A stretch of 64,000 bases of DNA from Convolutriloba macropyga (taxonomy: Eukaryota), in the NCBI RefSeq assembly GCF_964194025.1, contig NC_134471.1, positions 42,842,001-42,906,000 on the forward strand, in the 5' to 3' direction. This document shows positions 28,101 to 57,908 of this stretch, one piece after another. A model generated the notes under the pieces. The model ran no database searches. It was not told the DNA's origin and saw only the letters and a list, made by a program, of their open reading frames with translations. Every line of letters starts with the position of its first letter. Positions within the stretch are counted from its first letter, which is position 1. The position numbers and the translations under genes were made by a program.

Positions 28101-28374
28101 TGCGGATTTCATTATATGCAATATACATATTAGCAAACCATTTCAAGACAACAATCACTGCTTTTACTGTTTTGCAGCTAAAAATGGCTGAATTGTCTTC
28201 AAACTGTCAACGTAAAAATCTCTCATTCCAGATAACAACAACTGTTCACAAAATTTTGATTGTTCCTTTGCGGTGTTTCCGGCGACTTCTTTTGAAAAAT
28301 AACAACTGATTTTTTCTAAATAAAGTCATTAGTGCTCGATTGTCAACTTTTCAAAATAATAATCCAATATTTTC
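25140..28374. repeat. Duplicated ~670-bp flank co-amplified with the CRE element (25140-25811 and 27708-28374)
   Basis: Near-identical sequence from cagactgcttaggctctaagag to taataatccaa(a/t)attttc in both places. Confidence 0.92.
25809..27720 (-). mobile_element. CRE-clade element, partial copy C (N-terminus through RT)
   Basis: Duplicate of 22129 onward. Retains the (G)VAVKCGSESIVHA RT segment that is deleted from A and B. WYLDDG at ~26305-26325. Confidence 0.88.
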
Positions 28375-35238: not shown

Positions 35239-35486
35239 TGTTGTGGTTAACAACCTTTTGACCTTCATATTGCGAGAGCTTCAAAACTTCAATTCAAGAT
35301 GACTTCTTCAACAAACGCAACAATAAATTACCACGTGATTTGAACTAAGAAATCATAATTTCATCTGATTTTATCAACAACACTTGTTTCCTTTTGAGCT
35401 TGAGTTCTTCTCAAGCATAAAGCATTTAAGTCTTTAAAGCGTTTAAAGCAAGTCTAATCAACAAAAATAAGTGTTGCAACGCAACA
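35239..35486 (+). repeat. BEL/Pao 5' LTR (248 bp)
   Basis: TGTTGTGGTTAAC…GCAACGCAACA. Differs from the 3' LTR by about 4 substitutions and 1 indel (counted by eye). Confidence 0.97.
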
Positions 35487-36061
35487 TTTAATGGTCCGCC
35501 GAAAAATAGGTTAAGGATAAAATAGTCGAAGCATTAAGCACCCAAAGCATTCACTCTCTCAAAAATTTGTTGATAACCTAAAAAGGGTAAACTTAAAGGG
35601 AAATTGAAAAGCGGACCCCCCACTAGATACCATCATTACCCCACATGTTATTCAAGTTGATTAACTTGTATAACTAGGTTGATTAACCTAACCAAGAGAC
35701 CCGGTAGAGGATATCTAGTGGGGTAACTGTATACTCAAGATTCTGCATATTTTTTTTGAAAAACTTCAGGGGAAGTCAATCTCTCTCTCTAGTTCTCATT
35801 GAGAACACGGTTTTTGTTAGCTTACTTTGCCCCCTGAAGTACTAAGACTAAGTTCGCGCGTAAAAATTGGCCGCACTTTTGCGGGGGGATAGATACAACC
35901 CTATATTTACAACTTTCACGCTGTTTTAACTTGTTTCTGAGCTTTCAGCCACAAAAGATTTACAACAACCGATTAAGACAAAGAATACAGCCAAAGAATA
36001 CAACTAAAGAACAGCATCAAGAACAAAGCAAGGAACAGTGAGACAACAGCATATCAGAAAC

Positions 36062-37700
36062 ATGCCAGAAAATCAAGAACTTCTTCGAAAGTCGCGTGAG
36101 GCTCACAGAGGAGTTGCAACGAAACTCTACAATGAAGCAGACGGCATAATGAACAAACCGTTCACACTTATCAATGAAGACGACCTTATCCGACTGCAGC
36201 AGATAGTTGAACTATTGAAGAAGAAGCAAGCCTTCCTATCTGAGCAGAACAATAAAGATTCAGTCTCTTTTTGATGATCCTGACAACTTGGACGATGAAA
36301 TTGTTGAGACAGAGGAGTATGATGACAAGATATGCCAAAATATCGACTATATTCATCGGTTTGTTCAGCGAAAGACAAGACACTCGTCACAAGAGAGCTC
36401 CTTGCAGCCGGAAGCACCACGATTTCGAGGAATATACAGAACATCAATCTACCAAAGCTCGACTTGCCCAGTTTTTCCGGAAACTACTTGGACTGGATCT
36501 CCTTTTATGATCGCTTCAAGGGAGCAGTAATAGATAACGATCAGTTGACAAACAGTTTGAGATTACAGTACCTGAAGTCAGCATTGAAGGGAGAAGCTTC
36601 GAAGATGTTAACTTCAATCACAGTCACCGACGACAACTTCGATGTTGCAATGGAAACTTTGCAGAACCGATACGACAACAGGAGATTGATACTTCGAGCC
36701 CACATCCATGGAATTGTCTCATATCGACCAGTTTCACACGAAAACACACGGGAATTACGAAAACTTGTCGACACAATGGAGGAGCACAGACTTTCTCTTC
36801 GGAACATGGGACAACCAGTTGAGCATCAGGACCCCTTTTTTGTCTACTTGATTGCAGAAAAACTGCCCACCGAAACACGAAAGTTCTGGGAGCTTTCTTC
36901 AAAGGGGAAAGAACTGCAGACCTATCAGGAACTAAAGACATTCCTGGAGGAACGTGTTCAGGCGTTGAAGTCAGCAGCACCAAGCAACAGTTCATCAAAT
37001 ACCGAAAAACGATCGCATACGCAACAAAATCATCCACAGAGACAACTTCACACTCATGTTACGACAACGAATCAGCAATGCGAATGTTGTGAAGAGGAAC
37101 ACAGAATTTTCAAATGTGGTAAGTTCAAAGGTTTAGGTGTCAAGGAGCGAGCCCAGCTGATCAAAGTCAAAGGACTTTGTTTTAATTGTCTAAGACCAGG
37201 ACACCGAGCAGAGAGTTGCGATGGTTCTTCGTGCCGCCAATGTGGACGAAAGCATCACACGTTGTTGCATCGAGAAGATGCGCATCAAGTAAATCAATTG
37301 AAAAACTCGTTTGGAAACAGCCGCAAAGCCAACGCAAGAGATCAGGAGAAGGTTTCATCTGGAGCCTCCAGCAGTAATGCAGAACAAATAACTATCGATC
37401 AAAAGATAACAGCAGCCCTCACCCATGAAGACAAGACACAGGAAATTTTTCTTCAGACAGCAATTGTTCCTGTTAATGTTCAAGTAGAAATAGTATATCT
37501 GCGAGCAATTCTGGACTCTGCATCTCAGAATAATCTTGTAACTGAAACTTCAGCTAAAGACAACTGAAAGACTTCAGCTAAAGAGAAAGAGGAACAATAC
37601 TCGTGTTTTTGGACTCGGAGGAAATGAAGTCTCAACTAATCGCGGATTTGTTGACCTTTGCCTTCAACCAAAAAACAAAGCACCAATTATCATTGACGCG
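36062..37700 (+). pseudogene. gag: BEL gag and protease (frameshifted)
   Basis: LPKLDLPSFSGNYLDWISFYDRF (DUF1759-type gag). Three Cys/His knuckles: CECCEEEHRIFKC, CFNCLRPGHRAESC, CRQCGRKHHTLLH. Protease RAILDSASQ. Frameshifts near 36260-36400 and at a 14-bp duplication (acttcagctaaaga) near 37547-37583. Confidence 0.92.
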
Positions 37701-37715
37701 TCAGTTTTAACGAAA

Positions 37716-40700
37716 ATGACAAACGATTTACCTTCTCGGTACATCAACACAGACAATTGGGAGACAGTAAAGGAACTACAGTTGGCTGATCCCGACTTTA
37801 ACAAGCCCGCCCAAGTTGATCTAATCATTGGAGCTGGACACTACGTGGACTTGATGGTTGGGAACAACAGACTGAAAGAACCAAACATCCCCGTTACATA
37901 TCGGCTCTCAGTATTCGGTTGGTTAGTAATTGGACGCGAAAACGTGCAAACTTCCAATTCTTCCAGTTTGCAAACCTACTTTGTGTCATCATTTGAAGAC
38001 AGTTTGCAGCGTTTTTGGGAAATCAAGGAAGTGCCTGCAACTAAACATCTGACCGACGAAGAAAGAAGATGTGAAGAACACTTCAAGTCAACCACACGCA
38101 GAAGCCCTGAAGGAAGGTTCATCGTAAAACTGCCGTTTAAGAACGAAATTGGAGAACTGGGGGATTCCCAGCAGCAAGCACGACGAAGACTTAGAAGTCT
38201 CCTTCATAGACTTCAAAAACAGCCTGATCTGTACAGAAGATACAACGAGTTCATCAATGAGTTCATTAAACTAGGACACATGGAAGAAGTACCAGCAAAG
38301 GAGATGCTACTGCCAATAGAGAAAAGCTATTATCTCAGCCATCACTGTGTGTTCAAAGACTCAAGTACAACTACGAAGCTGCGTGTAGTCTTTGATGGTT
38401 CAGCAAAGACTACCAGTGGAATTTCTTTGAACGATAGACTGATGGTGGGACCCAAGATCCAGAAAGATCTATTCAGCATCCTGATCCGTTTCCGTATGTA
38501 TCCTGTAGCCCTTTCAGCAGACATTGCAAAAATGTACAGACAAGTGCAACTGGATACCGAAGATAAGGACTATCATCGACTACTTTGGAAGGAACCGAAC
38601 TCAAAGACATTTAGGATGACACGTGTCACGTACGGAATAGCATCATCAGCGTTCCATTCTATTCGCCCATTACAAGTTTTAGCGGAAGATGTTACGGCAA
38701 AAAATGTACAGCTAGGAATCACGACAGACATGTACGTCGACGACTTGTTGACAGGAGCACCCGATCTGGAAAGTGCAATGAAACTGCAGGACTCAATCAT
38801 AGCAGTTCTTTCAAAGGCAGGGTTTGAGATTCGCAAGTGGACTTCAAGTAACCCAGAACTTGTTGAAAGGCTACCTGCAAACTTTCGAGAAACTACCGAC
38901 GAGATGACGATTAAAAGCGACGACTACAGTATAAAAACTTTAGGCGTCAAGTGGAACCCAAATCCAGACCACTTCAGTTTTATAGCAAAACTAGACGAAA
39001 AGACACCATCTACAAAACGCGAAATACTGTCAGAAGTTACACGGCTCTTTGATCCGTTGGGATGGCTTTCACCTACAACAATTCAGTTCAAATCTTTTGT
39101 TCAACTGCTTTGGATGGACCGACTTGGATGGGACGAAGCTTTGTCGAAATGCCTTCAGCAACAGTACAGCCGACTCAGAGTTCAACTGAAGGAATTGGAA
39201 ACTATTACACTGCCCAGAAAGGTAGTTTCAATCTCGCCAGCATCATCGGACATTGAACTTCATGTCTTCTGTGATGCATCAACTACAGCCTACGCCGCAG
39301 TTGTGTATATACGACAATCTTTCGACGGAACAGTTCACACAAGGATGTTGACAGCAAAGACCAGAGTTGCACCAATAAGGAGTTTGTGCGTTCCCCGGTT
39401 GGAACTTTGTGCAGCACTTCTTGGAGCAAATTTTGGTGGAAGCGATATCATCATCTTGGAACGATCAACGTTTCCCGACACCAAAAGTGTACGCTTGGAC
39501 AGATTCAACGGTAACACTGGCTTGGCTGCAAGACTTTCCAAGAAAGTGGAAGACATTCGTTGCCAACCGTGTTGCAAAAATTCAGAACCTCATTCCATCC
39601 AGCAATTGGAATTTCGTGCCGACGGAGGAGAATCCTGCCGATTGCGCATCACGAGGAATCTCAGCCGCAAACCTAGCCAAACACAGCCTTTGGTGGAATG
39701 GACCCAGCTGGCTAGAAAAAAGCGAAGATTATTGGCCGAAGTCGGAATCAATTGAAGAACATCAGCATGCAGTGAACAACGAAGTGCAAGGAGAAACACT
39801 GAAGCAAACAACAATGGTTGTTACTCAGGAGAACAACTCAATAGTTCAGCTAATTCATCGAACATCCTCGTTTGGAAAACTGGTTCGAATTTTTTGTTAT
39901 GTCAAGAAATTCATTCAGAAGGCCAAACAACAAAGCCAGAAAACCATTGCCAGCAGAACAGATCCAACAAAATCCGATACCAAATGCTACTCACAGAAGA
40001 GGAACCTATCATCAAAAAGATGTCAACAGAAAAAGTCGGAAGCTGCAATAGCATCTGAATTTCAGTCACTTCAACTCAGCTCTTCAGATCTTTACCTTGG
40101 ACGGATTGCCATATACAGCCTGATTCAAAAACTTTACTTGCAAGAGTTTAATGCAATTGTTAGTCAATCATCTTCATCAATGACAGAAGGGAAAGGTAAC
40201 AACATTCCGGAGAATGTGTATTGTCATAAACCCCTTGGTAAGGTTGAGGTAGGTAAAGTTGGTGAGGTTGAGGTAGGTAAGGTTGAGGTTGGTAAGGTTA
40301 AGGTAGGTAAGGTTGGTCAAGGTGAGGTAAGTAAGGTTGCTAAGGTTGAGGTAGGTAAGGGTGGTAGGGTTGAGGTAGGCAAGATTGGTAAGGCTCAGGT
40401 AGGTAAGCTTTGTACAGCTCAATTAGGTATTTCAGATAAACCAACAAGATTCCACGATTTGCAGCAACAAGTAGATACAAGTGAAGAAGAATTGATCAAC
40501 AGTACCACAAAACGAAGAATAAAGCTTTTGCCAAAAAGAGGACGACTTTTCAAACTTTCTCCCTTCTACGACCCAGACAACAAAGTTGTTCGCGTGGGCG
40601 GACGACTAGCAAATTCGCCATACAACATAGACAAGAAGTTTCCTATCCTTATTCCCAAAGATTCTCCAATCACAGTGCTCCTGATTCGGGAAGCTCATGC

Positions 40701-41899
40701 AAGGAACTTACATGGAGGCCCACAGTTAACATTGTTTTATCTTCGACAAACAATTTGGATACCCGGAGGACTATCAGCTGTTAAAAAAATTATTTACAAC
40801 TGCAAGCCCTGCATTCGCCACGACGCCAGGATTCTTCAGCCTCAAATGGGAGATCTGCCAACAGAACGTGTTGTTTCATCATTTGCTTTCACCCACACTG
40901 GTTTGGACTACTGTGGACCTTTCAGCATAAAAGACAGCAGCGGAAAATTGCAGAAAACGTATGTTGCCCTTTTTGTATGTTTCAGCACAGGCCGTCCATA
41001 TGGAAACAGTGACAACGTTGACCAAGGAGGACTGTCTGTACGCCATAAAACGTTTTACAGCACGACGTGGACTGCCCGAAAATATTTATAGTGACAACTC
41101 AAGGACTTTCATTGGAACTCGGGGAGAAATTGAGTTTCGTAAATTATTAATGGACAGAGAATTCAAGGAACTGGTGGATGCCTTCACTACAGGACATCAG
41201 ATAAACTGGTTGACAATTCCTCCACGGACGCCTCATTTTGGAGGTCTCTGGGAAGCCGCAATAAAATCCATGAAGAGACATTTTTACAGGACTGTGGGGA
41301 CAACAAAGATGTCTTTTGAGAATTTCACAACCCTGATCACTCAAATTGAGGCCATCCTCAATTCTCGCCCACTTACAGCCCCCTCTACCGATGCCAATGA
41401 TCCCTCAGCACTAACACCCGCTCATTTTCTTATTGGACGCCCACTGACAGCTTTGCCGGAGCCATCTCAAGAAGACAACCGGACACTAAACAGAAGGTTC
41501 AAAAGCATCAACAACATTGTCAGACAATTTTGGAAAAAGTGGTCCGTGGACTACTTGACAACACTTCAACATCGAACAAAATGGCAGGATAACAAACAAC
41601 AGCACGCCGTCAATGACATTGTTATCATCAAGGAAGACAACACGCCTCCAATGCTATGGCCACTGGCAAGGATTACAAAAATATTCGACGGAAATGACAA
41701 GATAGTACGAGTATTCCAAGTTAGAACGCAAACAGGACTCTACATACGACCAGTAAGCAGACTGGTTCCATTGGAGAAGGAGACCAGAATCTCACGTTAC
41801 CCAAATGGAAGACAGCGGATGACTCAATGGATGAGGATTGACAAGTCAGCAGCACAACCCAATTCAATACAACAAGACCGGAAGATAAGCGTTCCTTAG
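37716..41899 (+). pseudogene. pol: BEL pol (RT, RNase H, integrase) split by two frameshifts
   Basis: LRVVFDGSAK, DIAKMYRQV and MYVDDLLTG (RT). LHVFCDAS and PRLELCAA (RNase H). HARNLHGG…CKPC, GLDYCGPF, IYSDN, HFGGLWEAAIKSMK (integrase). ORFs 37716-39755, 39409-41091 and 40961-41899. Confidence 0.95.
40236..40410 (+). repeat. Degenerate ggtaaggttgaggta minisatellite translated in frame as (GKVEV)n
   Basis: Visible in ORF 39409-41091: GKVEVGKVGEVEVGKVEVGKVKVGKVGQGEVSKVAKVEVGKGGRVEVGKIGKAQVGK. Confidence 0.95.
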
Positions 41900-41989
41900 A
41901 CAATGAGCAATCAATATTCAAGTCAATATCATCAGCATTCAATATTTGCAATATTTTGAAGTCTGTCAAGCTAATTGTAAATCATTCAC

Positions 41990-42115
41990 CTTCATGACTT
42001 CAACGACAATGACGACAACAATGATGATGATGTTGATAATGACCACGAGCATGATGATGACGACAACGACAAAGACGACAACGATGACGACTACGACGAC
42101 GAAGATGACAACAAG
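41990..42115 (+). repeat. GAY/AAY trinucleotide-rich tract (poly-Asp in one frame)
   Basis: Reads HDFNDNDDNNDDDVDNDHEHDDDDNDKDDNDDDYDDEDDNK, between the integrase stop and the PPT. Confidence 0.9.
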
Positions 42116-42243
42116 GCAAACAACAATCAATTTTCAGAAAACAATTTCCTCGTCAAAAATTTTCTGTGAAATGTCTTGTGTCAAAGGTCTCAAGTGACTT
42201 CAAAATTACTTTTCAATTGAACTCGTTCAAGGAGGCCGGGTTA

Positions 42244-42492
42244 TGTTGTGGTTAACAACCTTTTGACCTTCATATTGCGAGAGCTTCAAAACTTCAATTC
42301 AAGATGACTTCTTCAACAAACGCAACAATAAATTACCACGTGATTTGAACTAAGAAATCAAAATTTCATCTGATTTTATCAACAACACTTGTTTCCTTTT
42401 GAAATTGAGTTCTTCTTAAGCATAAAGCATTTAAGTCTTTAAAGCGTTTAAAGCAAGTCTAATCAACAAAAAATAAGTGTTGCAACGCAACA
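42244..42492 (+). repeat. BEL/Pao 3' LTR (249 bp)
   Basis: Direct repeat of 35239-35486, followed by TSD aacct. Confidence 0.97.
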
Positions 42493-43800: not shown

Positions 43801-44062
43801 TATCACGCCTTAGCTTTTGATTGGTTGATAAAAATAGAAAATCGAAAAATATTACACGCAGTAAAATAGTATAATTTCAGTTCTTACCACTACCACACGT
43901 CCGTTCAGCCGCTTGTATCGAGCACCCTATTAACTTAGCAGAAATCAGAACGTTTTTACCTTGTACCCCGCACAAAAAATTTAGCAAAATACTGAATAAA
44001 AACCGTACTAGAAGGATAATAACTCCATAGCGAAACCTCCTTAAATAAGGGAGTAACCCACA
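43801..44062 (+). repeat. 5' LTR of the env-bearing Gypsy element (first ~5 bp eroded)
   Basis: tatcacgccttagcttttgattgg…gggagtaacccaca aligns with 57637-57908. Confidence 0.9.
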
Positions 44063-44508
44063 TGGCGACAGATTCGGAAACTTTTTTCTGCACTGATAAA
44101 CTCTCCACAGACTTTTACAGAATAAAGGCCCTCCCTTTGATTCAAATAAAAATCTGACACTCATATTAGAATACCACTAATTATACATAGCCGCACTGTA
44201 AGAGTTGAAACTATATGGCCATCACCCTCCGGCATTCAAGTTAACGTCACATTAGACGACAACTCAGAACACGTTAAATTCATTTACTGTGGAATACAAA
44301 CACTGTACAACTTAGCAATCTTTATATGGAATTCAACTCGCTTCTACAACACCATGCCCCAAAACCTGAACCAAGCAACAGTAAGTTCCTTTAATTATCC
44401 AATCAAACCACCCAATGATTTTTGAAAACAGCCTACACAGAACAATTTTGTACATTTTTTATTTAACTTTTCTCATGCACAAACAAACAAGCAATCAAAC
44501 CAAAACCA

Positions 44509-45500
44509 ATGGCGGAACCAAGCCCTCCTCATTTCCACCTGCGACGTTTCTCTGGAGTACCAAATGACAATTGGGACCAATTTGAAGGCCTGCTTCGAGC
44601 CAGCATTGCCGTATCAAGCAGACCTGAAGCCCATCACCAACGAGCACGATACCTTCACCTACATCTTGATGGGGATGCACTTAACTTATATCTCCGGCTG
44701 CCAGAGGTTACCAAAACGACTTGGACAACTCTCTACAAGAGCAACGCAACCGCTATGCAGGTGCAGATCAACGAAGAAATTTCGAGTTTCACCTACAGTC
44801 ACAAAAATTTGACCCCCTAAAAGAACCGCAAGACGATTTTCTTACCAGACTAAAACGCCTCCCAAATCTTGCAATAGTAGACGACGACGCATGTATAGAT
44901 CGCACCGACGAAAGACAACGAATAATCAGGGAGCAATTTATTTAGGGCATGCCATTCAAGGAAAAGAAAGTTCTCCAGAAAATGACAATACTGCAGTCAA
45001 CGAGCTGTGCGCAGTAATCAAAAGAAGAGTTCGAACCGATCAAATACACCCAGAACCACAGCATTTAACGCACTTAATGCATCAAGCAACCCAGCAGTTG
45101 TCCATGCTCTAGAAAAGATAATGGCTGCAGGAATCACATCAATGCAAGTTTCACAATCACAAAACCAAAAATTTCCGGCATTCTCAAGCCAGCCAAATTT
45201 CAACAACTACGGCAGAGAAAGAGCTTTCAGTACGCAAAACAGGCCCCGACTATTTAACTTTAAAAGCCGACAAAACACTGAACGTGAGCAGTACCAATAC
45301 GAAAGAGTTGAAGGAGCGTATTGGGGAGAAAGCCGAGGAAGCTTCCGAAGAAACAGGAGCTTTTATAAACGGAATGAACAAAGACTTTAATAATAACAGA
45401 GAAAGATCCCCAACGCCATTCAGAACATTCTGTCGGACGTGTCAGCAATCAGCGCACCGCCCGAGATTGTCCTCAGCGACAACCACCATACCAAGATAGA
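44509..45500 (+). pseudogene. gag: gag
   Basis: RRFSGVPNDNWDQFEGLL…YLHLHLDGDAL; FDPLKEPQDDFLTRLKRL; IIREQFI*GMP; decayed CCHC knuckle FCRTCQQS(x)H…RDC near 45430-45470. Confidence 0.8.
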
Positions 45501-45529
45501 AACATGCCTTTCAACCAACAGCCAAAAAA

Positions 45530-48500
45530 CTAAATAACCTGCATGCTTTTCAACAAAACCTAGATAATCTCATATCAACTTTTAGAGAGAACGTTTTTCT
45601 TGTACCTTTAGAATTCGAATCTGTTTTTATCAAAACCATTGATACAGGAGCGTTCAGCAGTGCGATGTCACAAAAACCATTTAACAAAATCAAAAAGTAT
45701 AACAAACATGGAAAAGAACAAAAAAGCTCCACCAGATATTTGCGTTTCTACAGCATTCGTACAACAATCGCCGATACTCTCCATTGTTCAACTGGACAAC
45801 AATCAAAATTGGACAAATAACACTGGATAAAGAATTTAATTTTTGAAAATCTAGCTTCCACACTACTCGGTCTACCGTTTTTCGAGAGACAAAATAATCC
45901 TTGACCCAACAACCGATTACTGCATTTCCTGGAATTCACATTTCACTTCAATACAATGAAAATGAAGGGAAAAGGAAAACAAAAATGACTGAAAGCTAGA
46001 AAATTAGCCCTGAAGACAACAATAAATCCTTCAACCCGGACAACAGCAGCAATTACAATTATAACCAGAAGAAGTAATGAATAAAGCAGAACAAATAGGC
46101 ATCGTTGAGCAAACTCCAAAGTTCGAAAAACTTGGCATCGCTCTCAGTAGCCATTTGGGCAAACTAAACAACAAAAACAACAACAACAGAACAATCTAGC
46201 TTTCTATAAACACAACCGAAATACCAATAACAGTCAGAGACGGTTCAATCGTTGCAGCTTTTGACTTTATTACACCAGAGCAGGCTCGATATCAAATGAC
46301 ACTAGAACCAAAACTATTTCAAACTGAAAACGAGAAGAGAACAGATCAAATAGCAAAGTCCGTCGATAAAGCTGCCAGAGGAAACATCAATCACATACCA
46401 ATAACTCAAGAATATCAACTGTGGTTTGCCACTCAAGAAACCCACAGCAGCTCACAACTAGTGGGTGTCGAAAAACTTATTTACGAGGAACTAATAAAGT
46501 TCAAACAATTCGAGGAAATACAGCCCTCGGAAAACCAAAAGGAACACAAGACCTTCTTAAACTGATTCGCCTGGAAAAATAGCGTACTCTATGAAGCCGA
46601 TAAGAAACGTACCGAATCGCTTCTCGTGGAATTCAATGCAATCTTCACCCGACACCAACTAGACATTGGGTATAGGCACAAGTTTTCTGTGAAACTGACA
46701 CCAGACACTGACAGACCAGTTTACTCGAAAACACTAAAAATCTCCATACACTTGAAAGACGACTTACTCGTAGAACTAGCACTGCTAAAATACTACGGAG
46801 TGATCACCAGCTTACCATTCAGTCGCTACGCATCGCCCATTTTTGCAAAGCGAAAGACAATCGGGAAGCTACGGATACTTGTCGACCTCAGGAAAATAAA
46901 CCATTTGATACGAAATGACAGCATTAACAACAATTTCCCAATAGCAACACTAGCAGATGCTGGCACTCATCTCGCAGGAAATAAACTTCTGTAAAATGGA
47001 CGGAAGCCACGTATACTTTTCGGTCCCAATGGGACACAAAGAATCAGTCCAACTTCTCGCATTCAATTTTGCCTAAGAACATATGCATTTCAACGACTCG
47101 CTCAAGGGCTAAGCAGAAGTTTGAGCGCCCTCAGCTCCTCCATGCGCCAAAATACAGACCCGGGAATTACAGCTGACAAAAGCTTCCAACATGTAGATGA
47201 TATTGGCATTGGTGCAGATGACAGACATGATAGGAAAATTGAGAGCCGTTTTCTCAGGCTTTCGTGAATCGGGAATGAAACTTGCGACCGACAAATGTCA
47301 ATTCGGACTGCGCAAAATACAGTTTTCGGGGAACGCAATAGCCTCAAAATGCTTAGCACCAAAATCACAAAAAGTTGCAAATTTCCTGAAAAACTTCGAA
47401 GAGGCCAAAAACAACTAAACAAGTAAAACGAATGATTGCGTTCTTTCAATTCTACAAAGCCTTAATACCCGGGCTATCTGAAAAGTTGCTACCATTCTAC
47501 AAACTTCTAAAGAATGAAGCCAATTTTGAAATCGAGGAAGAACACAAATTAATGCTACACTAACTAAGAAATGACCTTAAAAATGCATGTAACATGTCAT
47601 TTCGATTGCCAAAAACGGACCAACAATATGTCATTAAAGCGGATGCATCCTTCTACGTCGCTGGGTATGTCCTAATGATAGAAGACTATACAGTGAATGA
47701 CATGAGTGACGAAACCAAAATTTACGCTCCAGTTACGTTCGGACTAAAAATATTGCAAAAACAAATCAACCTAAGCTCTCAATCTATGCAAAAACCTGTC
47801 CTCATTCTAAACGATAACAGATCTGTCACAAGATTTCGTCAAACGAAAAAAATACCAACCACCCTCCGGAACGCCTTGAACCACGTTCTAAGTTTTCACA
47901 CAATCCTGGGACACATACCAGGTAAAGCAAACCTTGCAGCCGACTATCTCTCAAGAATACACAGAAAATATCTCAAACAAAAACTTAAGTTACAAATAAA
48001 ATCAAGAATCCAAATGCATGAGATTGAGGTTGACAAAGCATCAGACGCCCCAGATAATTCTTTAAAATCACTTCCAGAGGAAGCACTTCAGCTGCCTAAA
48101 ATAACAAAAGACTACTTACTAACAACACAACCAAACACCGCAGAAATGCAAACCATTGAAGCTGACGTACAAATGCAACTCCTTCCATATCATATCGCAT
48201 CATTGCAAATGCAAAACCCGCTAGACGATATCACAACGCAAGGCCATGGCCCACTGAATCTACGCTCAGAGCAAAAAAGGACCAGGATACCAATAGGGTA
48301 AACAACTGGTTTGAACGCGGACGACTGGTTTGAACTTCCAGCCAACATCTCTCAACAGACCTTTAGAAGCACCTAATGCAATACCCCAGAGTAAGCATGT
48401 TTGATGGCGTACTATACAGAAAAATTTTTGACTAAACGGGGAAACACTTCACTAAATAATACTGTGTCCCAAAGCAGCTACGAAAAGAGGTACCATACCG

Positions 48501-49600
48501 AATACATAACAGCCCATGGGCCGGTCACAAGGGAAAAACATACAATTTTCGAGTTCTGGAAGCGCTTCTACTTTCCAATATTTACAGAAACACTTACAGA
48601 GTACATTAAAAGCTGCTTCATCTGCCTGCAGAGCAAACCAAGCTATCACCAACAGCATCGCTCAGACCACATCTCCAACCATTGTCAAAGCAAAACTTCC
48701 CAGGAGACGTAATGCTGATAGACCTTGTAGGCAAAAAGCACCCAACATCCTAGACTTTTATTATATCTGGTATTGACGACTTTTCGAAAAATCTGTTCGC
48801 TGTTCCCCAAACGAAAGGCGACGCCGACTTGGTAGCTAAAGCACAGACCTCAATATTCCTACGACATTAACATATACACTCACCAAAAATTTGTGACATG
48901 GGTACCGCATTCACATCTGAACTAATGAATTGGCAAACCTACTGAAATTACAACTAAAACTCTGTACACCCAAACACGCAAAAACGATAGAAAGGGCTAC
49001 TAGAAAGGAATCATGCGCCTTTGAAACAAATGCTACGATTAAACGAAAACCAAAGCTCAACAGACTGGCATCGCTTTCTCGACATAGCAATTTCTATACA
49101 CAACACAACGTATGCTCCCGCACTAGGATGCACACCTACTGCTGTGTTTCACGGAAGAACCCCAGTAAACGCCCTTGATCTAAGATTCCAGAACACAAAA
49201 CTATGGAAGAATATCCCCAAGTACGACAGTGTCAAAGAATTACAAGACAAAACTACAGAACTCTTTGCTATGGTTAAAGAGAACTTCATAGCTTTATATC
49301 TCACATATAAGAAGTGTTACGACAGAAAAGCAAACGCGACTCCACTTAAACTTCATCAGCACTGTCTAAAAATAGACCCCAAGTGTACCAAAAAAATTGC
49401 CATAATGAACAAACAACAGACATGATGGATACACCTATACGGAGTAGAAAAAGTTCTCACAAACGTCAATTACATTGTCAGAAAAAACCAACACAAACTT
49501 CACCCAATGCGTGCATCGAATGAGACTCAGACCGATTGAGCCACAATACGAGTTTGAGGACCTAAAAAAGAACAGACCCCCGTAAGTTTGAAGCCGACCC
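45530..49600 (+). pseudogene. pol: pol (protease, RT, RNase H, integrase)
   Basis: IDTGAFSS (protease, ~45640). LPFSRYASPIFAKRK..GKLRILVDLRKIN, RLAQGLSRS, HVDDIGIG (RT). ADASFYVAGYVLMIED, HIPGKANLAADYLSR (RNase H). CFIC, IDLVG, CDMG, HNTTY, QCVHRMRLRP (integrase). Confidence 0.92.
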
Positions 49601-49788
49601 CACAATTCCCGAGGAGGAACGAGAACCGCAATTAATTGACAACCAAGGCCATGTGAACACAAATCAGAACGACATGGTTCTCCCTCGAACTGACTCTGAT
49701 ACCAGAACAGCTGCCTCTAACTCTAATGTTCAAAGAACAAACTTCTCACAACAAGAAGCCAGAACAACGTTGGAACATATGAACAACA

Positions 49789-51396
49789 AACCAATCTCTG
49801 ACCAGGAAGCATTTTTCGTTGAAGTATCAGTTCCACCCGCACACACTGAGACCCCAGAATCAGTTGACACCGAAAACTGCAGTTTCTCAGCACAAAGCAA
49901 TTTTTCTCAAAAGGAAGCACAATTTGGAGCAATCCGTCCGCACAACCTATCCAGAGGAGACCACCTAGCGTTAGCACGCTAGAACTCAGTCTACAACACG
50001 CTACAACTAAAACAGGATGAAGAACCAGCGGTTGCGGTGATCACCTTTTTTCCACTAGACCCTTACACAAAACCCGAACTCCACAAATAGATGCACAAAA
50101 CGACGACTCGGATTAAGCAGAAAATCGGTCAAACAGACACAGAGAGCCTCCGGGATACAAACATAAATAGCCATGATTTGTGGCAAGACTTCGACATCTC
50201 ATTAGACCCCAACTACATGCCTATAGTCAAAACAAACACTACTCTCCATACGAATCAGGAGATTACACAACGGGCTTCACAAATACCGAAACAAATCCAT
50301 CAGAAAACTTTTTGACGATGAACGACGCTACAGTCATTGTTCTAACCAAAATCAGACACAGAACCCAAATAACAGCTCTTGGACCGACGAGCTTGAATTC
50401 ACTGTACCAGAAGACACCCATTTCCTGAGCTCATTACCCATTTCACAAAGAGTTTCTAAAAGAGAACTCCGTGACCTCGGACCAAATATAAATCAACGAA
50501 GACGAGTAGTACCACTAACCCTTCAACGGAAATCTTCATCAAACACTTGCATTCGATGAGTCACAACATACTCAGTGATTGGCAATACTACTACTAGTGT
50601 TGTGACTCATCGAATGCAAGTGTTTGATGAAGATTTCCGTTGATCTCTCCACGGTGAAGGGTTAGTGGTACTACTCGTCTTCGTTGATTTATATTTGGTC
50701 CGAGGTCACGGAGTTCTCTTTTAGATACTCTTTGTGAAATGGGTAATGAGCTCGGGAAATGGGTGTCTTCTGGTACAGTGAATTCAAGCTCGTCGGTCCA
50801 AGAGCTGTTATTTGGGTTCTGTATCTGATTTTGGTTAGAACAGTGACTGTAGCGTCGTTCATCGTCAAAAAGTTTTCTGATGGACTTGTTTCGGTATTTG
50901 TGAAGCCCGTTGTGTAATCTCCTGATTCGTATGGAGAGTAGTGTTTGTTTTGACTATAGGCATGTAGTTGGGGTCCAATGAGATGTCGATGTCTTGCCAC
51001 AAATCATGGCTATTTATTTATGTTTGTATCCCGGAGGCTCTCTGTGTCTGTTTGACCGATTTTCTGCTTAATCCGAGTCGTCGTTTTGCGCATCTATTTG
51101 TGGAGTTCGGGTTTTGTGTAAGGGTCTAGTGGAAAAAAAGGTGATCACCGCAACCGCTGGTTCTTCATCCTGTTTTAGTTGTAGCGTGTTGTAGACTGAA
51201 TTCTAGCGTTCTAACGCTAGGTGGTCTCCTCTGAATAGGTTGTACGGACGGATTGCTCCAAATTGTGCTTCCTTTTGAGAAAAATTGCTTTGTGCTGAGA
51301 AACTGCAGTTTCCGGTGTCAACTGATTCTGGGGTCTCAGTGTGTGCGGGTGGAACTGATACTTCAACGAAAAATGCTTCCTGGTCAGAGATTGGTT
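49789..51396. repeat. Internal inverted duplication: arms 49789-50568 and 50598-51396, 29-bp spacer
   Basis: Mirror-image ORFs 50180-50428(+) / 50689-51000(-) and 49653-49982(+) / 51203-51460(-). The arms are complementary with a few percent divergence. Confidence 0.97.
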
Positions 51397-51569
51397 CAAA
51401 CAGTGATTGGCCAAAATATAAAATACACCAGAATCCCAACACCAACCAATTCATTTTCAAAATTTATGCTATTCATAATGAGTTGCCGCAAATCTAAAAA
51501 AACCTTTCTTATTTGCCCACACAATTTATTTCATAACATAACAATTCACATTAACCACCCAGACAAAAA

Positions 51570-53815
51570 ATGGAAGTTTGCATAACTCTTGCGATACTCC
51601 TGAGTTATCACAAAGCTACTCGAAGTCAACCCACAGTCGCCACAAAAGATGGAGTTCTCTGCAATCTTTATCAAAAAAGTCTAACGGAAAAGTTTGTCGA
51701 AACGGAAATTCTCGTCCCTTACCCCAAAAACAAAACAATTGAAGAAAAACTTTTAATTTGGCCAGGGAAATTGAAATAATGTGGACTTCCAAAAATTACG
51801 GATGCCCATTGTACTTTACCAATATGACTGATTCAACAGCTGGACTGTACTGGATAGCACAGCAGACACTGATGGAAAACAAACGATCCCAAGAAGACAT
51901 TGAAAACCTCCGTTTGGAAATGAACACGTTACTAAGGGCAAACAGTCAAACGGGTTCAAAATTACGCCAACCGCGAGGCTCCGCAGCTGCAGCAGCCACA
52001 GTTCTAGGAATTTGAATTGGCTTTGGTGATCAACTGCTTTGCTTCATAAAATATGTCTTTGGCGGATGTGATAAAAGAGTTGCGCGTAATAAAGAAAATA
52101 TAAAAAGGGCAATCAACTACCTTCAATACTCGATTGATCACGTGGAGGAGGTCACTGTACAACACAATGAGAAATTATATGTGTCCGGTTAACTAAAAGC
52201 GATTAAGGAAGCGCAATAGTAAAAGAAAAACAAAACCGTAATTGGGAACTTGCAGAGCCAATTTAAGGTTCTGCAACAGAATGTACATCATATTCGCAAC
52301 TGCATACAAGATCTGTATGTACGAGAGCAAATCAAACAATGCAGCTCAGTCCTGAGTAAAATTTTTTAAACAATTTTGTCGAACATAAAAACATACCGTG
52401 CAGCCTTATACACGTTTCGGATTAATATCCTCAATGCCTTGACTCCACTTATGAACCAACTACTACCAATGTCACTAGTACCACGCGCTCAACTCAACGA
52501 AATTCTGACTATTGTTCATCTGCAGCACTAGATGTGGACTAGATGACCAGTAATCTTTTGCCGTGCCGATTCAAGAGATCCTCTCATACTATGAAACCAA
52601 GTTGAAGCAATCGACTCGGGGATTATTCTAACACTGGCCATCCCCATGGCCTCAAAAATCATTGATGAACGCAATACATGCAATTCTCATCCCAACGCCT
52701 GATTGAGACAGGAAAACCATTAGTTTGGCGTTTGGAAGCCAAATATATGGCCGTCTCTGATGACGGAGGAACAAGAGCTCATCGATAAGACAAGCTTGCA
52801 ATTTGTATTGGGTCCAAAAATTATGCAGAAAGCCATACCAACTGAGCGGATTTACAAATCATGCATTGGTACAATACTTTACCACTACGATGAGCTACTT
52901 GCATTGCAACGCTGTCAATTGGATGTAATAGAGTTATCACTGACTGAAAAAGCGCGCAATCTCGGCTTTGCTCGTTGGTTAATCTCATCGTCGCGCAACG
53001 AATACGCGCTCATCGTAAGCAGTGGGAACTGAAGCAATCCGCTGTTCAGAATTGAGCACTCTGGATGCCAGATTTGCATCATCACTTTAAGATGCGGAAA
53101 AACGCTACGAAAACCAAATGTTCAATTGCGTTCAAATTTAATAGCCTGCGGAAGAGAACCAGCACTACGGCTAACCGGACCCCATTAGTACCAGATTTAA
53201 CCAGCTTCCACCCCTGGATGAACTAATCAGAAGCCCAAATCCAAATTCTACAACAAATTCAACCAGAATTCAAACTAATTGAAAACCGAAGAACGAATAC
53301 ACAATCTATCGAAGACATTGCGCAACCAATATTAGAGCGAATACAAGCTTTCCAATCCGACTTGGAGAACAGATTCCAGCAGTACTTTCCCTGACGACAA
53401 TCGATTCTTTTCGGATTTCTGTCGTTCATAATAAGCGTTCTTCTCCACCTAACATACTCTCACTTACTTCACAAATGGTCAAAGCTACATCGGAGATTCC
53501 CATTAAGGATAACACACGAGGGACGTAAGATCAGGCCAAAACACGTTCAAGTGGTCGCAATCAACGATTACGAATGCATAAAACACCCCGAACATCCGCT
53601 ACATAAATGCTCATTAGTGCTTCCTTTTGAGAATTAAAAATGGATTTGAAAACCAAACAGAGCAAGACTCATCAAAGAACAGCGAACGCCGTACAAATTC
53701 CTCCGTAATTACATTCGACAACTGCGACAAAGCGAAGAAAGAAGTATCACAATATACCCGCAACCGCAGCTGCTCCGTACAAAAAATCCATACATATATA
53801 CCGCCAACAAAATAA
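51570..53815 (+). pseudogene. env: env-like class I viral fusion glycoprotein (F-type)
   Basis: Signal peptide MEVCITLAILLSYHKATRS. Furin-type site RQPR (51965-51976), then hydrophobic GSAAAAATVLGI*IGFGDQLLCFIKYVFGGC. Heptad region NKENIKRAINYLQYSIDHV. LMNQLLPMSLVPRAQLNEIL and IILTLAIPM. Cys-rich segment (SCIG, QRCQ, GCQIC..LRCG). TM ILFGFLSFIISVLLHLTY (~53404-53460), then a cytoplasmic tail. Confidence 0.85.
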
Positions 53816-54174
53816 AAAGTACAAAATTACGTAGCTGAGGTTCCATCACCAAAACATTGAAAAACCCTCACCCTCTTCGCCAGAGATCAATCCAGCTGCT
53901 AATGAGTTTACGCAAAACGGAAGTGATGTCGAACTGTTTCTCCCCGTAGCGCTCTTTACGAAATTGATATCCAAAGCGTTTCTGAAAACAGCTTTCCCCC
54001 TTCGTCCCCAGAAAACAACAGCTAATCAAACACTGAAACAAACACACTGATTCAAACAAACAAAAAAACAATCCAATAAAACTTTCCGACTTGGGAAGAA
54101 AAAAAACGTAACAATGACCGAAGAAACTGACATTTGGACAAGGGTGCGTAATTATGTTGATACTGTGAATCATA

Positions 54175-56100
54175 TTGTACCATCATTTACGCAATTTACA
54201 TCGCAGTTTGCCTAAAAATAGGAAGGACATACATCAATTGTTTTTTAGAAGATTTGTTACCCTAACTGATGGCACAATTGTTATCTGTGCTATTCCCCCA
54301 CCCGTTTTGCTAACACATAAATGCCACTTTAAGCCTACATGGGAGTACTACAATTACATCCGACACTTCATAACAACCTCTGCAGGCCCGTCATTAACTC
54401 ACGATAATTGGGCTTAAATCAACCTAATCAATGACGACCCCTTGATCCCGAAAACAAAGAAGAATTTCGAATTTCGAGGCGCAAAAGATGGACACCTTTT
54501 TTCAATGTGGATTTCAACGTGAAACTCGGGAGTTTTCCAAGAATATATATTACTCTGCAACACTATTACATTCTGGTTAACCTTTTCTAATAATTCTACA
54601 CAAATTGCCCAATTTAAACCAGGTGATATCGAATATACCAGAGTACGATGATTCGTCAAAAGCGGGCAAACCGAGGGAATCAATGGTGAATTTGAAAACA
54701 AATCGGATGAAGAATGTTAACAATGCATCTACACCAGAATATTGTCACCACATACCTGCACGAGGTTTTGACACATGTTACAACACACAAAAAACATTTT
54801 ACAACAAGGGCCATTACTTACAAGAATTGCATGTTTATTATTATGAAAAAGAAATTTTTTTTCTTCGTCAACAATACATTCTTAAATTTAATTACTTGCA
54901 AGTACATGAGCAACACGAAAACGGCAAACTATTGTAGCCCATTCAATTCCCTGACAGTTACACAAAAACGTATAAAACTTAAAACTTGCAAAATTGTGCA
55001 AGGGGCATTACTTAAAATGCAACAATTTTTTACCTTTCCAACTTAAAACCTACTTAGTAATTCATTTTCAATGTCATGAACAATCTGAATAACATCTAAC
55101 GCTCTTTCATTGGTAATGGAAGAGCGGCACTGATTGGCTGACATGTATTTCTACTATCCACTATTTCTAGCACTACCTTATGTCAATTCTCGTAAACAAT
55201 ATTTTCCTAAATCCAACTATTTATACTATTCAGTCGAACATTAGCAGCTCTGTGACACACTTTACAACAAAATTCTTAACTCCATTCTTTATATTGAATT
55301 AACTTTTTGTTACATTCCACGCTTAATAACTTGTTGCCATAACATAAAGTGAAATTGCTCAATACCGAATTTAATACCAAGCTTTACATTTTCCAGTTTT
55401 CTACTCATTTAAATTCATTCCTTACTTAACCACGGTTTAAAACCCTTGTTCCCTCTTCAGTCTTCCTTTCTAGAATATGTAAAATAAAATGACAGATCAA
55501 GACGAAAACATTATCGACTTCGACGGAGGCTGTATACCGCCTATCCTCCCGTTCCCTATGTTTATTTATGTGCACCATGGTCCACCCAACCCAAGGCCGC
55601 TTTAAACTGGCCACCTTTGAGGATTTTATCGTTCATTAAGACGGACCCATATCGTTATATGTTGAATTCATAGAGACAGGAACCTATTACCGCCCCACAC
55701 GTGTCACCTTTAACCCCACATTCCTGGAGTAAAAAATGCCCGATTTTCTTACTAGTTCGATACGATGGAAGGGTTGTTTAAGCAAGACAACCCTTATTAA
55801 CCCCCCAAACTCGCAGTCCCATATTATTATTGCTTCAACCAGTATTAGCGTACATCTGAGTCAGCAGCTACCAAAAACGCAACATCCCTATCTAAATATA
55901 TAGTAACTCCTCATACTGGGAAGCATTAAAACGCATCATCGATTCACATTCAAGTAGCACTATCATCATTTTTAATGACAACCAACCGCTTCTCCCAGAA
56001 AACCATATATCATTTCCATCCCCAGAAAATCTATTCAAACCAAATTAGAGACTTGAATTTATTTGCTAGCTCTCACCTTATTCCAAAACTAATTAATCAT
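54175..56100 (+). pseudogene. Decayed sense accessory ORFs of unknown function inside the Gypsy-env element
   Basis: The frame of 54175-54417 continues through two isolated stops to ~54650. ORFs 54605-54937 and 54714-55046 overlap. From ATG ~55488 a frameshifted ORF reads MTDQDENIIDFDGGCIPPILPFPMFIYVHHGP/TQGRFKLATFEDFIVH*DGPISLYVEFIETGTYYRPTRVTFNPTFLE*KMPDFLTSSIRWKGC. Confidence 0.45.
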
Positions 56101-56118
56101 ATTGTTGGTGATGTTCAA

Positions 56119-57069
56119 TTACCTTACGGTTAAGCCCAAGATGGATCTTTGCGCTGAAGAAATGTCACCTTGAAATCTGTCACTCTGGGCCACACGTTTC
56201 CCAAACCATCGATTGCGAGTTGTATTTGTCCACTTCGACACCATCCGCGCCCCTGTCGAAGCAAGCGACAGCACGTGTCCAGCAACATCAGTGGGGTGGC
56301 GTTCCTCTGCCCACAAAACAACAGCGGAGACTACTTCGGACAACAGACGACAGTGCCTTTTCTCGCACCGATGGCTCAAATTAAGAGGGTTTTTCTTGCA
56401 ACGTCACCATATGTCTCGTCAATAGCCTCCCAATCAGTAACGAGAGACAGGCCCGTAGTCACTGTCAGAACAGCATGAAAACACAAAGTTGGCTGACACA
56501 ACAAGCTATCGCGAGATGGTATATAAAACTAAATATCTCCATCTCGGAACCCAACACTTTTTGGGGCCCCTTCTAATCGTTCCCATGAAGAACTGGGGTG
56601 TAGACATAATCTTTTCCAGAAGCCGAGAAAGGTGCATTGGAAAAGCTTGCATCACCACCAATTTCTATGTGACCGCGTCCACGACTCGTTCCATTGGAAG
56701 ATTGCATCCTGGGTTTTCAGATGAAACCTTTACCCTTTGTGCAATTTGGCTTTGGAATAATCACCAACTGAAAAAGTCCACCCGCTTGACATCGAGAGAA
56801 CAGAATACGGAGACAGCAGAAGAAAAGACAGCTCTGCAAACGTTCAGGCCACTTGATGTTGGCATGACCGGCCCTTCGCCATACAATTGAGCAATCTTCC
56901 GACGCAAGCCCGCCCACGACTTGACGCCAGAACCATCGACTGTTGGCACTTCCGCCAACCCAGTGCTGTCATTTTCTCCCGCCCCAAAACATTTCCTGAA
57001 TTCCTTCACCTGCTCCCGTAATCCCACATTCATCTTTGTGTTGCTTATAATTTTGATATATTTATTCAT
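56119..57069 (-). pseudogene. Decayed antisense accessory ORF (~300 codons) inside the Gypsy-env element
   Basis: Locally GC-richer block. The minus frame MNVGLREQVKEFRKC…RVDFFSW*LFQSQIAQRV…VVDAVT*KLVVMQAFPMHLSRLLEKIMSTPQFFMG runs ~170 codons with two stops. After frameshifts it continues …DWEAIDETYGDVARKTLL…LDTCCRLLRQGRGWC…WPRVTDFKVTF. Confidence 0.55.
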
Positions 57070-57631
57070 ATATTTGTTCCAATGAAGTAATCTTTAAATT
57101 TAATAATCCCCTTTTATAAACAAGGCCTTTTCAGAGCTCTATCAAAGCTCATTTATGATGCAGTACCACAATCATTTTAAGAAAAAAAATAGAATGGCAC
57201 AGCGCCAATACCACAATACCAATTTCCCACAATCCCTCCCTCCATTTATTTTATCAACCCACCAAATATGATAATTCAACTAATTCGATTTACTTTCCAT
57301 TCAAGCCCTCCGATTTTCAAAAGCCGTCCGAAGAAAAGATGAAAGGCACAAACTAGACGCATAGTACCAACCAAAGAAACCCCACTGGAGCCAAGGAGAT
57401 AGAATACAAAAATTCAGGATTCCAAAATGAATTCTTAAGAAAACAGATGAAAAAAAAAACAGAAACCATGAAAAACAAAACTTTAAAATTGCATTTTTAA
57501 GATGAATTGCTCCCAGCATGTTCTTACCCAAAAAACTTAACCCATAGAGCACCCGTAGCACAGTACACTATACCTTTTGTTTTGTATCAGGTAACGGGTT
57601 CGCTCCCCGGCTTCCGCCTTTTTTAGAGAGC

Positions 57632-57908
57632 CGTGGTATCACGCTTTAGCTTTTGATTGGTTGAGAAAAATAGAATATTACACGCAGTAAAATTGTATAA
57701 TTTCAGTTCTTACCACTACACCTCGGTTCAGTCGCTTGTATCAAGCGCCCCCAATAATTTAGAAATTAACTTAGCAGAAATCAGAACGTTTTTACCTTGC
57801 ACCTCGCACTTGGAAAAAGTGGAAAAACTGCAAAATACCGAACAAAAACCGTACTAGAAGGATAAGATCTCCATAGCGAAACCTCCTTAAACAAGGGAGT
57901 ATGCCACA
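57632..57908 (+). repeat. 3' LTR of the env-bearing Gypsy element
   Basis: (C/T)GTGGTAT…ATGCCACA terminal inverted repeat, preceded by a short purine tract agagag and followed by ctac (ctac also occurs at 43793-43796, a possible TSD). Confidence 0.9.

What the first reader, a model, noticed from the sequence alone, without database searches (positions are those of the whole stretch)
51570..53815. Env pseudogene with complete class I fusion-protein architecture
Seen, in order: signal peptide, ~130-aa N-terminal subunit, RQPR cleavage site, Ala/Gly-rich fusion peptide, long heptad helices, an 'LLPMSLVP…LAIPM' region, a Cys-rich domain and a TM anchor. Established: cleavage near the N-terminus followed by fusion peptide and heptad repeat is the F2/F1 layout of paramyxo/pneumovirus F and baculovirus F, not the SU/TM layout of vertebrate retroviral Env. 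The putative fusion peptide carries a Cys pair (LLCFIKYVFGGC). Inference: an independent capture of an F-type fusogen, of interest for fusogen evolution and possible host domestication.
Basis: partly seen in the sequence, partly recalled or inferred. Interest (0 to 1): 0.75.

Follow-up and report, generated by a model that had tools for sequence, protein, structure and literature searches.

The report
Enveloped retrotransposon with demethylase-like cargo gene
This is a dead copy of a virus-like jumping gene whose envelope protein has the same fold as measles- and Nipah-type fusion proteins, which is already known in animals; the surprise is that its family also carries a conserved backward-facing gene resembling the enzymes that erase silencing marks on chromatin.

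Summary
The feature is real. Window 51570-~53800 is the broken env (6 stops, many frameshifts) of a 14.1-kb Ty3/gypsy element (LTRs 43801-44062 and 57637-57908, K2P 0.09). A naturally intact sister env folds at pLDDT 85 and matches paramyxovirus F (Nipah, E 1.8e-9) and baculovirus F (E 9.8e-17), so the F-type reading holds. 'Independent capture' and 'domestication' are not supported: F-type env is widespread in animal Ty3/gypsy elements (PMC13524379), and intact copies sit in full elements with 98-100% identical LTRs.

The new part lies outside the given coordinates. The family carries an antisense 357-412 aa ORF with a conserved H-x-E...H metal-binding triad plus lysine. It resembles JmjC dioxygenases and usually lies beside a small Cys-containing membrane ORF. 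It occurs in all three env clades sampled from this genome, downstream of env or between pol and env. The window holds a remnant at 56379-57093. Pfam and PDB sequence searches miss it, it was not folded, and expression is untested. Five paper searches and three look-ups of earlier scan notes found no JmjC-carrying LTR element.

The parts
43801..44062 (+). 5' LTR (begins TA, ends CA); 5-bp target-site flank CAACT on its left
44063..44080 (+). primer-binding site starting TGGCGACAG (tRNA not identified)
44509..45530 (+). gag, broken; 71-77% identical in its best segments to an intact sister gag
45467..50568 (+). pol (protease, RT, RNase H, integrase, long C-terminal tail), broken; Ty3/gypsy domain order shown on the intact sister
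50598..51396 (-). inverted duplication of the pol 3' end (49789-50568), 97-100% complementary; the close relative L046 has this stretch only once
51570..53803 (+). F-type env pseudogene (6 stops, up to 19 frame-breaking indels)
   Evidence: fold from the intact sister
51965..51976 (+). RQPR putative proprotein-convertase site (F2/F1 boundary)
   Evidence: aligns with the hMPV F0 cleavage site in the profile search
51977..52069 (+). fusion-peptide region ending in the conserved Cys pair (52040, 52067)
53401..53470 (+). transmembrane helix, followed by a cytoplasmic tail of about 135 aa in intact sisters
54126..55681 (+). remnants of small sense accessory ORFs (X2-like 54529-54696; X3-like 54126-54345 and 55516-55681)
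56379..57093 (-). remnant of the antisense JmjC-like ORF, in five pieces; the His-x-Glu motif region (about 56655-56729) and the distal His motif (56379-56528) are recognisable
57637..57908 (+). 3' LTR; right flank CTACT (4 of 5 match to the left flank); K2P distance to the 5' LTR 0.09 over 249 columns

Best explanation
The finding is the decayed env of an env-bearing Ty3/gypsy retrotransposon (an 'errantivirus' in the operational sense of PMC13524379). In intact family members Env is a type I membrane protein with the paramyxo/baculovirus F fold (shown on a predicted model). Inferred from the F family: it is cut at the basic site into a short F2 and a long F1, inserts the fusion peptide, and refolds its heptad helices to fuse membranes, letting particles pass from somatic cells to germ cells. 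The family also keeps an accessory cassette under purifying selection: an antisense JmjC-like 2-oxoglutarate/Fe(II) dioxygenase with an intact metal triad, a small antisense membrane protein, and 2-3 small sense ORFs. The most likely job of the JmjC-like protein (inferred, not shown) is to counter host silencing by removing or masking methyl-lysine marks on the element's chromatin.
For: Element anatomy. F fold: model pLDDT 84.9, pTM 0.76. All 37 PDB rows listed are paramyxo/pneumovirus F, best E 1.8e-9. In BFVD, baculovirus F scores E 9.8e-17 and chuvirus-like glycoproteins rank alongside. Atlas features 0.96 to Fusion_gly/Baculo_F. Baculo_F hits 6 of 47 relatives, 2 above the curated cut-off. 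env dN 0.115, dS 1.8 between subfamilies. JmjC-like ORF: Atlas 0.96, ten best named hits in the JmjC family or clan. In 21 aligned members H169 and K186 are invariant, and E171, H246 and T166 are kept in at least 90%. A KDM2/7-type profile built without any element sequence ranks these ORFs first to twelfth of 1254 ORFs and aligns both motifs collinearly (hhalign 34.4 vs a maximum of 24.3 in 60 column-shuffled controls). Synonymous sites are saturated while proteins stay 52-65% identical. The ORF is present in all three env clades sampled.
Against: TM-scores to solved F structures are low (0.23-0.33 by query length), and the fusion-peptide region of the model has pLDDT <50. Single-sequence Pfam and PDB searches miss the env. 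For the JmjC-like ORF: no JmjC hit in Pfam for 21 of 21 members, none in PDB by profile, hhalign probability only 22%, and Atlas recognition 2261, under the 2300 mark, which makes the score weak evidence. There is no structure model and no RNA evidence. The JmjC subfamily is not settled: a JMJD4-like host protein (label inferred) scored as well as the KDM7-like exon against the first alignment (P 0.027 vs 0.043).
Confidence: 0.8

Rival explanations
1. The env is a domesticated host fusogen (syncytin-like), or is on its way to becoming one.
For: Strong purifying selection between subfamilies (dN/dS about 0.06); many open env frames in the genome.
Against: This copy has 6 stops and many frameshifts and lies between LTRs. 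Intact copies are multicopy and sit in elements with 98.4-100% identical LTRs (5 of the 8 regions examined), so selection on the replicating element explains the signal. No solo env was seen, but no genome-wide solo search was possible.
Confidence: 0.04
2. The env is a recent, independent capture from an RNA or DNA virus in this host lineage.
For: The best BFVD matches are an abalone herpesvirus protein and chuvirus-like glycoproteins, ahead of baculovirus F. No Pfam family covers the intact sister env.
Against: Those matches are 10-16% identical. The env profile has 2371 relatives, the genome alone holds three deep env clades, no relative was found in viral contigs, and PMC13524379 argues for ancient acquisition.
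Confidence: 0.12
3. The antisense ORF is a JmjC-fold enzyme that is not a histone demethylase: a protein or RNA hydroxylase acting on viral or host factors, or a decoy binder.
For: JmjC proteins include many hydroxylases (established knowledge, recalled). No PHD or other reader domain was detected, the subfamily is unresolved, and it travels with a membrane ORF, which hints at a non-chromatin role.
Against: The best profile match obtained is to the KDM2/7 type (other subfamilies were not tested at equal depth). Members end in a Lys/Arg-rich tail that looks like a nuclear signal (by eye). There is precedent for parasite-borne KDM4-like JmjC in endogenised giant viruses (PMC11244446).
Confidence: 0.35
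4. The antisense ORF is not JmjC at all; the motif match is chance.
For: Pfam and PDB sequence searches are blank.
Against: The conserved columns across 29-64% identity include exactly the predicted ligands, two further divergent members keep them, and two separate methods point to JmjC.
Confidence: 0.12

Closest known systems
'Ancient errantiviruses' with F-type ENV (Chary and Hayashi, eLife 2026, PMC13524379; seen: abstract, sections 5 part 1, 6, 9 part 1, 14, passages, part 1 of 34 of supplement 1, term search of 7 supplements; figures not visible)
   Same: LTR-gag-pol-env Ty3/gypsy layout, F-type ectodomain with basic cleavage site and fusion peptide, multiple near-identical intact copies.
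   Different: Here there is 2-5 kb of extra coding sequence after env or between pol and env. The paper's main text has 0 occurrences of JmjC, jumonji, antisense or accessory, and its initial non-insect filter allowed at most 1000 nt between pol and env, which would tend to miss the pol-JmjC-env layout.
Paramyxovirus/pneumovirus F and baculovirus F (PF00523, PF12259)
   Same: Fold and domain order; profile match over F2 helix, cleavage site, fusion peptide and first heptad to hMPV F0 (E 0.005).
   Different: 8-16% identity; a Cys pair closes the fusion-peptide region; longer ectodomain (about 615 aa) and a cytoplasmic tail of about 135 aa.
Orchid Ty3/gypsy elements with an AlkB m6A demethylase ORF (PMC9289625; abstract seen)
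   Same: A gypsy element fixing an extra ORF for a 2-oxoglutarate/Fe(II) dioxygenase, read as counter-defence.
   Different: AlkB family with an RNA substrate, recent, in a plant; here JmjC-like, deeply diverged, in env-bearing animal elements.
KDM4-like JmjC genes of endogenised giant viruses in Amoebidium (PMC11244446; passages seen)
   Same: A stand-alone JmjC domain carried by a genomic parasite and proposed to oppose host chromatin silencing.
   Different: Giant DNA virus, KDM4-like, with introns; here an intron-free antisense ORF inside an LTR retrotransposon.
Bdelloid rotifer LTR elements with varied ORF3 (PMC5408684; abstract seen)
   Same: Paramyxovirus-like env and swappable extra ORFs, including small TM ORFs.
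   Different: The extra ORFs named are GDSL esterase, DEDDy exonuclease and dUTPase; here env and 3-5 accessory ORFs coexist in one element.

Membership tests
Ty3/gypsy LTR retrotransposon | pol order PR-RT-RH-IN | tested here: met
   Pfam on intact sister pol; window pieces collinear
Ty3/gypsy LTR retrotransposon | paired LTRs, PBS, target-site duplication | tested here: met
   window LTRs K2P 0.09, TSD 4 of 5; two intact sisters have perfect 5-bp TSDs. Termini are TA...CA or TA...TA, not TG...CA
Ty3/gypsy LTR retrotransposon | RT phylogeny within a named Ty3/gypsy clade | not tested
   no reference RT set was at hand
Errantivirus (operational: env-bearing Ty3/gypsy) | separate env ORF after pol with F- or gB-type ectodomain | tested here: met
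F-type class I fusogen | F-like fold | tested here: met
   Foldseek E 1.8e-9 to Nipah F, 9.8e-17 to baculovirus F; TM-scores low; tested on an intact sister, not on the broken copy
F-type class I fusogen | basic cleavage site directly followed by a hydrophobic fusion peptide and long heptad helices | tested here: met
   (sequence and model only)
F-type class I fusogen | trimer / six-helix bundle | not testable with these tools
F-type class I fusogen | membrane fusion activity | not testable with these tools
   needs experiment
Domesticated env (syncytin-like) | intact, single-copy, fixed locus with surrounding element decayed | tested here: not met
   window env is broken; intact envs are multicopy inside elements
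JmjC 2OG/Fe(II) dioxygenase | H-x-D/E...H triad and 2OG-binding Thr/Lys | tested here: met
   L144 keeps the triad but has Q at the Lys position; L121 has K for E
JmjC 2OG/Fe(II) dioxygenase | score over the Pfam JmjC/Cupin_8 cut-off | tested here: not met
   0 of 21 members
JmjC 2OG/Fe(II) dioxygenase | double-stranded beta-helix fold | not tested
   no model could be obtained; Atlas features point to it
KDM2/KDM7 histone demethylases | closer to KDM2/7 than to other JmjC subfamilies | tested here: inconclusive
   only the KDM2/7 type was tested as a profile

The most novel reading that the evidence does not exclude
A deep radiation of env-bearing animal Ty3/gypsy elements has carried, across lineages whose Env proteins are only about 30% identical, its own catalytically active JmjC histone demethylase on the antisense strand, used to strip host silencing marks from the provirus, together with a small membrane protein and other accessory genes: a 'complex retrovirus' grade of organisation with an encoded chromatin counter-defence, reached outside vertebrate retroviruses.
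Probability: 0.35. Interest if true: 0.85.

Novelty: new variant of a known kind. Interest (0 to 1): 0.6.

Why it matters
The F-type env itself adds one more family to a known, widespread class. The cassette matters more. How env-bearing retrotransposons persisted for hundreds of millions of years against host silencing is an open question (PMC13524379, Discussion). An element-encoded JmjC enzyme would be a direct and testable answer, parallel to AlkB in orchid gypsy elements and KDM4-like genes in giant viruses. It also suggests that screens limiting the pol-env gap, or ignoring DNA 3' of env, overlook accessory genes.

Tried and rejected
Single-sequence and shallow-profile Pfam/PDB searches of env gave nothing useful. 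Pfam/PDB searches of the JmjC-like ORF and of the small ORFs were blank. No relatives of env or of the JmjC-like ORF were found in viral contigs, and none of the JmjC-like ORF in metagenome contigs. Protein searches for the JmjC-like ORF returned only ENA entries 40-100% identical to the query, so its range beyond this host or close kin is unknown.

Expression: no RNA holder listed. The four runs laid are contigs of unrecorded type with even cover and varied LTR flanks, and say nothing on transcription or splicing.

Seventeen loci of distant env families showed no JmjC-like ORF in about 7.5 kb downstream of env. I first read this as absence and rejected that reading, because 2 of 8 of those loci checked upstream have it within 3 kb. 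The other 6 are inconclusive, since pol was not reached in any of the 8. The env tree is a quick tree with open deep forks and long branches; it gives no order of events.

No trimer model and no model of the JmjC-like protein were obtained. The small antisense membrane ORF was not detected in the window copy. The host taxon was not established; term searches of PMC13524379 for guessed taxa therefore do not show that this host is absent from that study. Earlier scan notes: nothing that bore on this finding.

Full report
Observation. Aligned to an intact sister gene, the window copy has 6 in-frame stops and 24 indels, up to 19 frame-breaking. The window lies in a 1.18-Gb genome whose host was not established. 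A DNA search gave 49 matches (40 of 208 candidates scored). The closest, at 81-82% identity, are also broken, while 6 of the 30 loci returned, at 69-71% identity, hold complete env ORFs of 778-828 aa from the ATG.

The element. The env is the third gene of a 14.1-kb Ty3/gypsy element, 43801-57908. Its LTRs differ by K2P 0.09, the PBS starts at 44063, and the 5-bp flanks match at 4 of 5 bases. gag and pol are broken but collinear with intact sisters, whose pol has protease, RT, RNase H and integrase in gypsy order. An inverted duplication of the pol 3' end (50598-51396) separates pol from env in this copy. Of 8 regions examined, 5 showed LTR pairs 98.4-100% identical around elements of about 14.6-15.5 kb, so sister subfamilies moved recently while this copy is older.

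The Env fold. Single-sequence searches failed. Remote methods agree. Atlas features score 0.96 to Fusion_gly/Baculo_F clusters. Baculo_F hits 6 of 47 relatives, 2 above the cut-off. A 150-sequence profile hits hMPV F0 at E 0.005 across the cleavage site and fusion peptide. The model of the intact sister ectodomain (pLDDT 84.9) matches paramyxo/pneumovirus F in all 37 rows listed, best Nipah F at E 1.8e-9, and baculovirus F, chuvirus-like glycoproteins and an abalone herpesvirus protein at E 1e-15 or better. TM-scores are low (0.23-0.33 to PDB, up to 0.53 to BFVD), which I attribute by inference to the different arrangement of the long helices; the fusion-peptide region is poorly predicted. The trimer was not modelled. 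The Cys pair after the fusion peptide is a family trait (34 of 41 rows). Disulfide-bounded fusion loops in other class I proteins are recalled, not tested.

Capture and domestication. PMC13524379 (abstract, sections 5 part 1, 6, 9 part 1 and 14 read; figures not visible) reports F-type env in Ty3/gypsy elements of most animal phyla and argues for ancient acquisition. PMC5408684 (abstract) reports a paramyxovirus-like env in rotifer elements. The env profile has 2371 relatives at E<=0.001, and this genome holds three well-supported env clades (quick tree). Purifying selection on env (dN 0.115, dS 1.8) is what replicating elements give. Nothing seen points to a solo, host-owned env, though a full screen was not possible.

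The accessory cassette. Intact sisters carry about 4.8 kb between env and the 3' LTR. It holds three sense ORFs of 102-151 aa, an antisense ORF of 357-378 aa, and an antisense ORF of 83-90 aa with a hydrophobic start, Cys residues and a hydrophobic end. Between subfamilies synonymous sites are near saturation while the proteins stay 31-65% identical (one X3 pair aligned over only 15 codons). In 15 of 15 loci picked by the large antisense ORF, env lies upstream, and the small ORFs and the large ORF have been exchanged between subfamilies independently of env. A family with 57-59% identical Env has the large ORF too (3 of 3 loci). Of 16 further loci picked by divergent hits, 14 have gag-pol, then the antisense ORF, then an env about 23-35% identical to the first group; one has the first layout and one shows no env within the stretch. 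LTR pairs at 95-99% were found for 3 of 3 of these checked. In the third env clade 2 of 8 loci have the ORF within 3 kb upstream of env. These counts come from loci selected by search hits and are not genome frequencies. The window holds a five-piece remnant at 56379-57093 on the minus strand.

Is it JmjC? For: Atlas score 0.96 with JmjC clusters on top. His169 and Lys186 are invariant in 21 members spanning 29-64% identity to the first, with Glu171, His246 and Thr166 kept in at least 90%. A profile made only from the host KDM7-like exons (identified against PDB at E 1.7e-51) and six metagenome homologues ranks the element ORFs first to twelfth among 1254 ORFs and aligns both His motifs in register, score 34.4 against at most 24.3 in 60 shuffled controls. 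Against: no Pfam or PDB sequence hit, hhalign probability 22%, Atlas recognition below its mark, no structure model, no RNA data. I put the JmjC fold at about 0.88 and histone demethylase activity at about 0.4.

Mechanism. Shown: anatomy, copy status, F fold, conservation of the cassette and of the triad. Inferred from F proteins and Drosophila gypsy: cleavage, trimerisation, fusion and soma-to-germline transfer. Inferred more weakly: an antisense transcript gives a nuclear JmjC protein that opposes heterochromatin on the element, and the small membrane protein assists budding, entry or receptor interference.

Novelty. The env is a new member of a known class. A JmjC-like gene in an LTR retrotransposon was not found in five searches of the held library (listings and abstract starts seen) nor in the main text of PMC13524379. 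Repbase, subscription journals and that paper's figures were not visible and could hold a prior mention. Nearest precedents are AlkB in orchid gypsy elements (PMC9289625, abstract), KDM4-like genes in endogenised giant viruses (PMC11244446, passages) and TET/JBP in fungal DNA transposons (PMC12730594, search listing only). Verdict: new variant of a known kind; interest about 0.25 for the env alone and 0.6 with the cassette.

Noticed in passing
window 35239-42472: A second LTR element (229-bp repeats, 98% identical) with Bel/Pao-like integrase ORFs (label recalled from motifs) and a G-K-V-E-V peptide repeat at 40235-40435.
   Followed up: no
window 43801-44062, 57600-57640; L033, L037: LTRs start with TA and end with CA or TA instead of TG...CA, and the stretch before the 3' LTR is not a clear polypurine tract.
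   Followed up: partly
window 13097-17049 and 22129-28207: Two arrays of long tandem-like repeats with periods of about 1045 bp and about 1283/2470-2570 bp.
   Followed up: no
L072 2178-7508: The block of three small sense ORFs is repeated four times in tandem (period about 1348 bp) within one element.
   Followed up: no
G000:C6:30432305-30445692; G000:C9:4400194-4404997; G000:C16:47053436-47066708: Tandem repeats of the JmjC-like ORF region.
   Followed up: no
L067, L068 versus L069, L070: Mosaic elements: env 98-99% identical to subfamily B, but the small ORFs (46-56% or 95%) and the JmjC-like ORF (60-64%) come from different subfamilies, so the modules recombine separately.
   Followed up: partly
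L118 9165-9434, L121 195-783, L122 231-791: In the second layout, small ORFs of 80-99 aa lie upstream of gag, inside or beside the 5' LTR region.
   Followed up: no
fold search of model mb16f885699dd: The top BFVD match is an uncharacterised 801-aa abalone herpesvirus protein (A0A145VUZ2, E 2.1e-18), and two ranid herpesvirus proteins also match: F-type folds in aquatic herpesviruses.
   Followed up: no
L031-L032, L037-L038 pol: Pol is 1720-1742 codons with an acidic, low-complexity tail of about 330 aa after the integrase, and overlaps gag in another frame.
   Followed up: no
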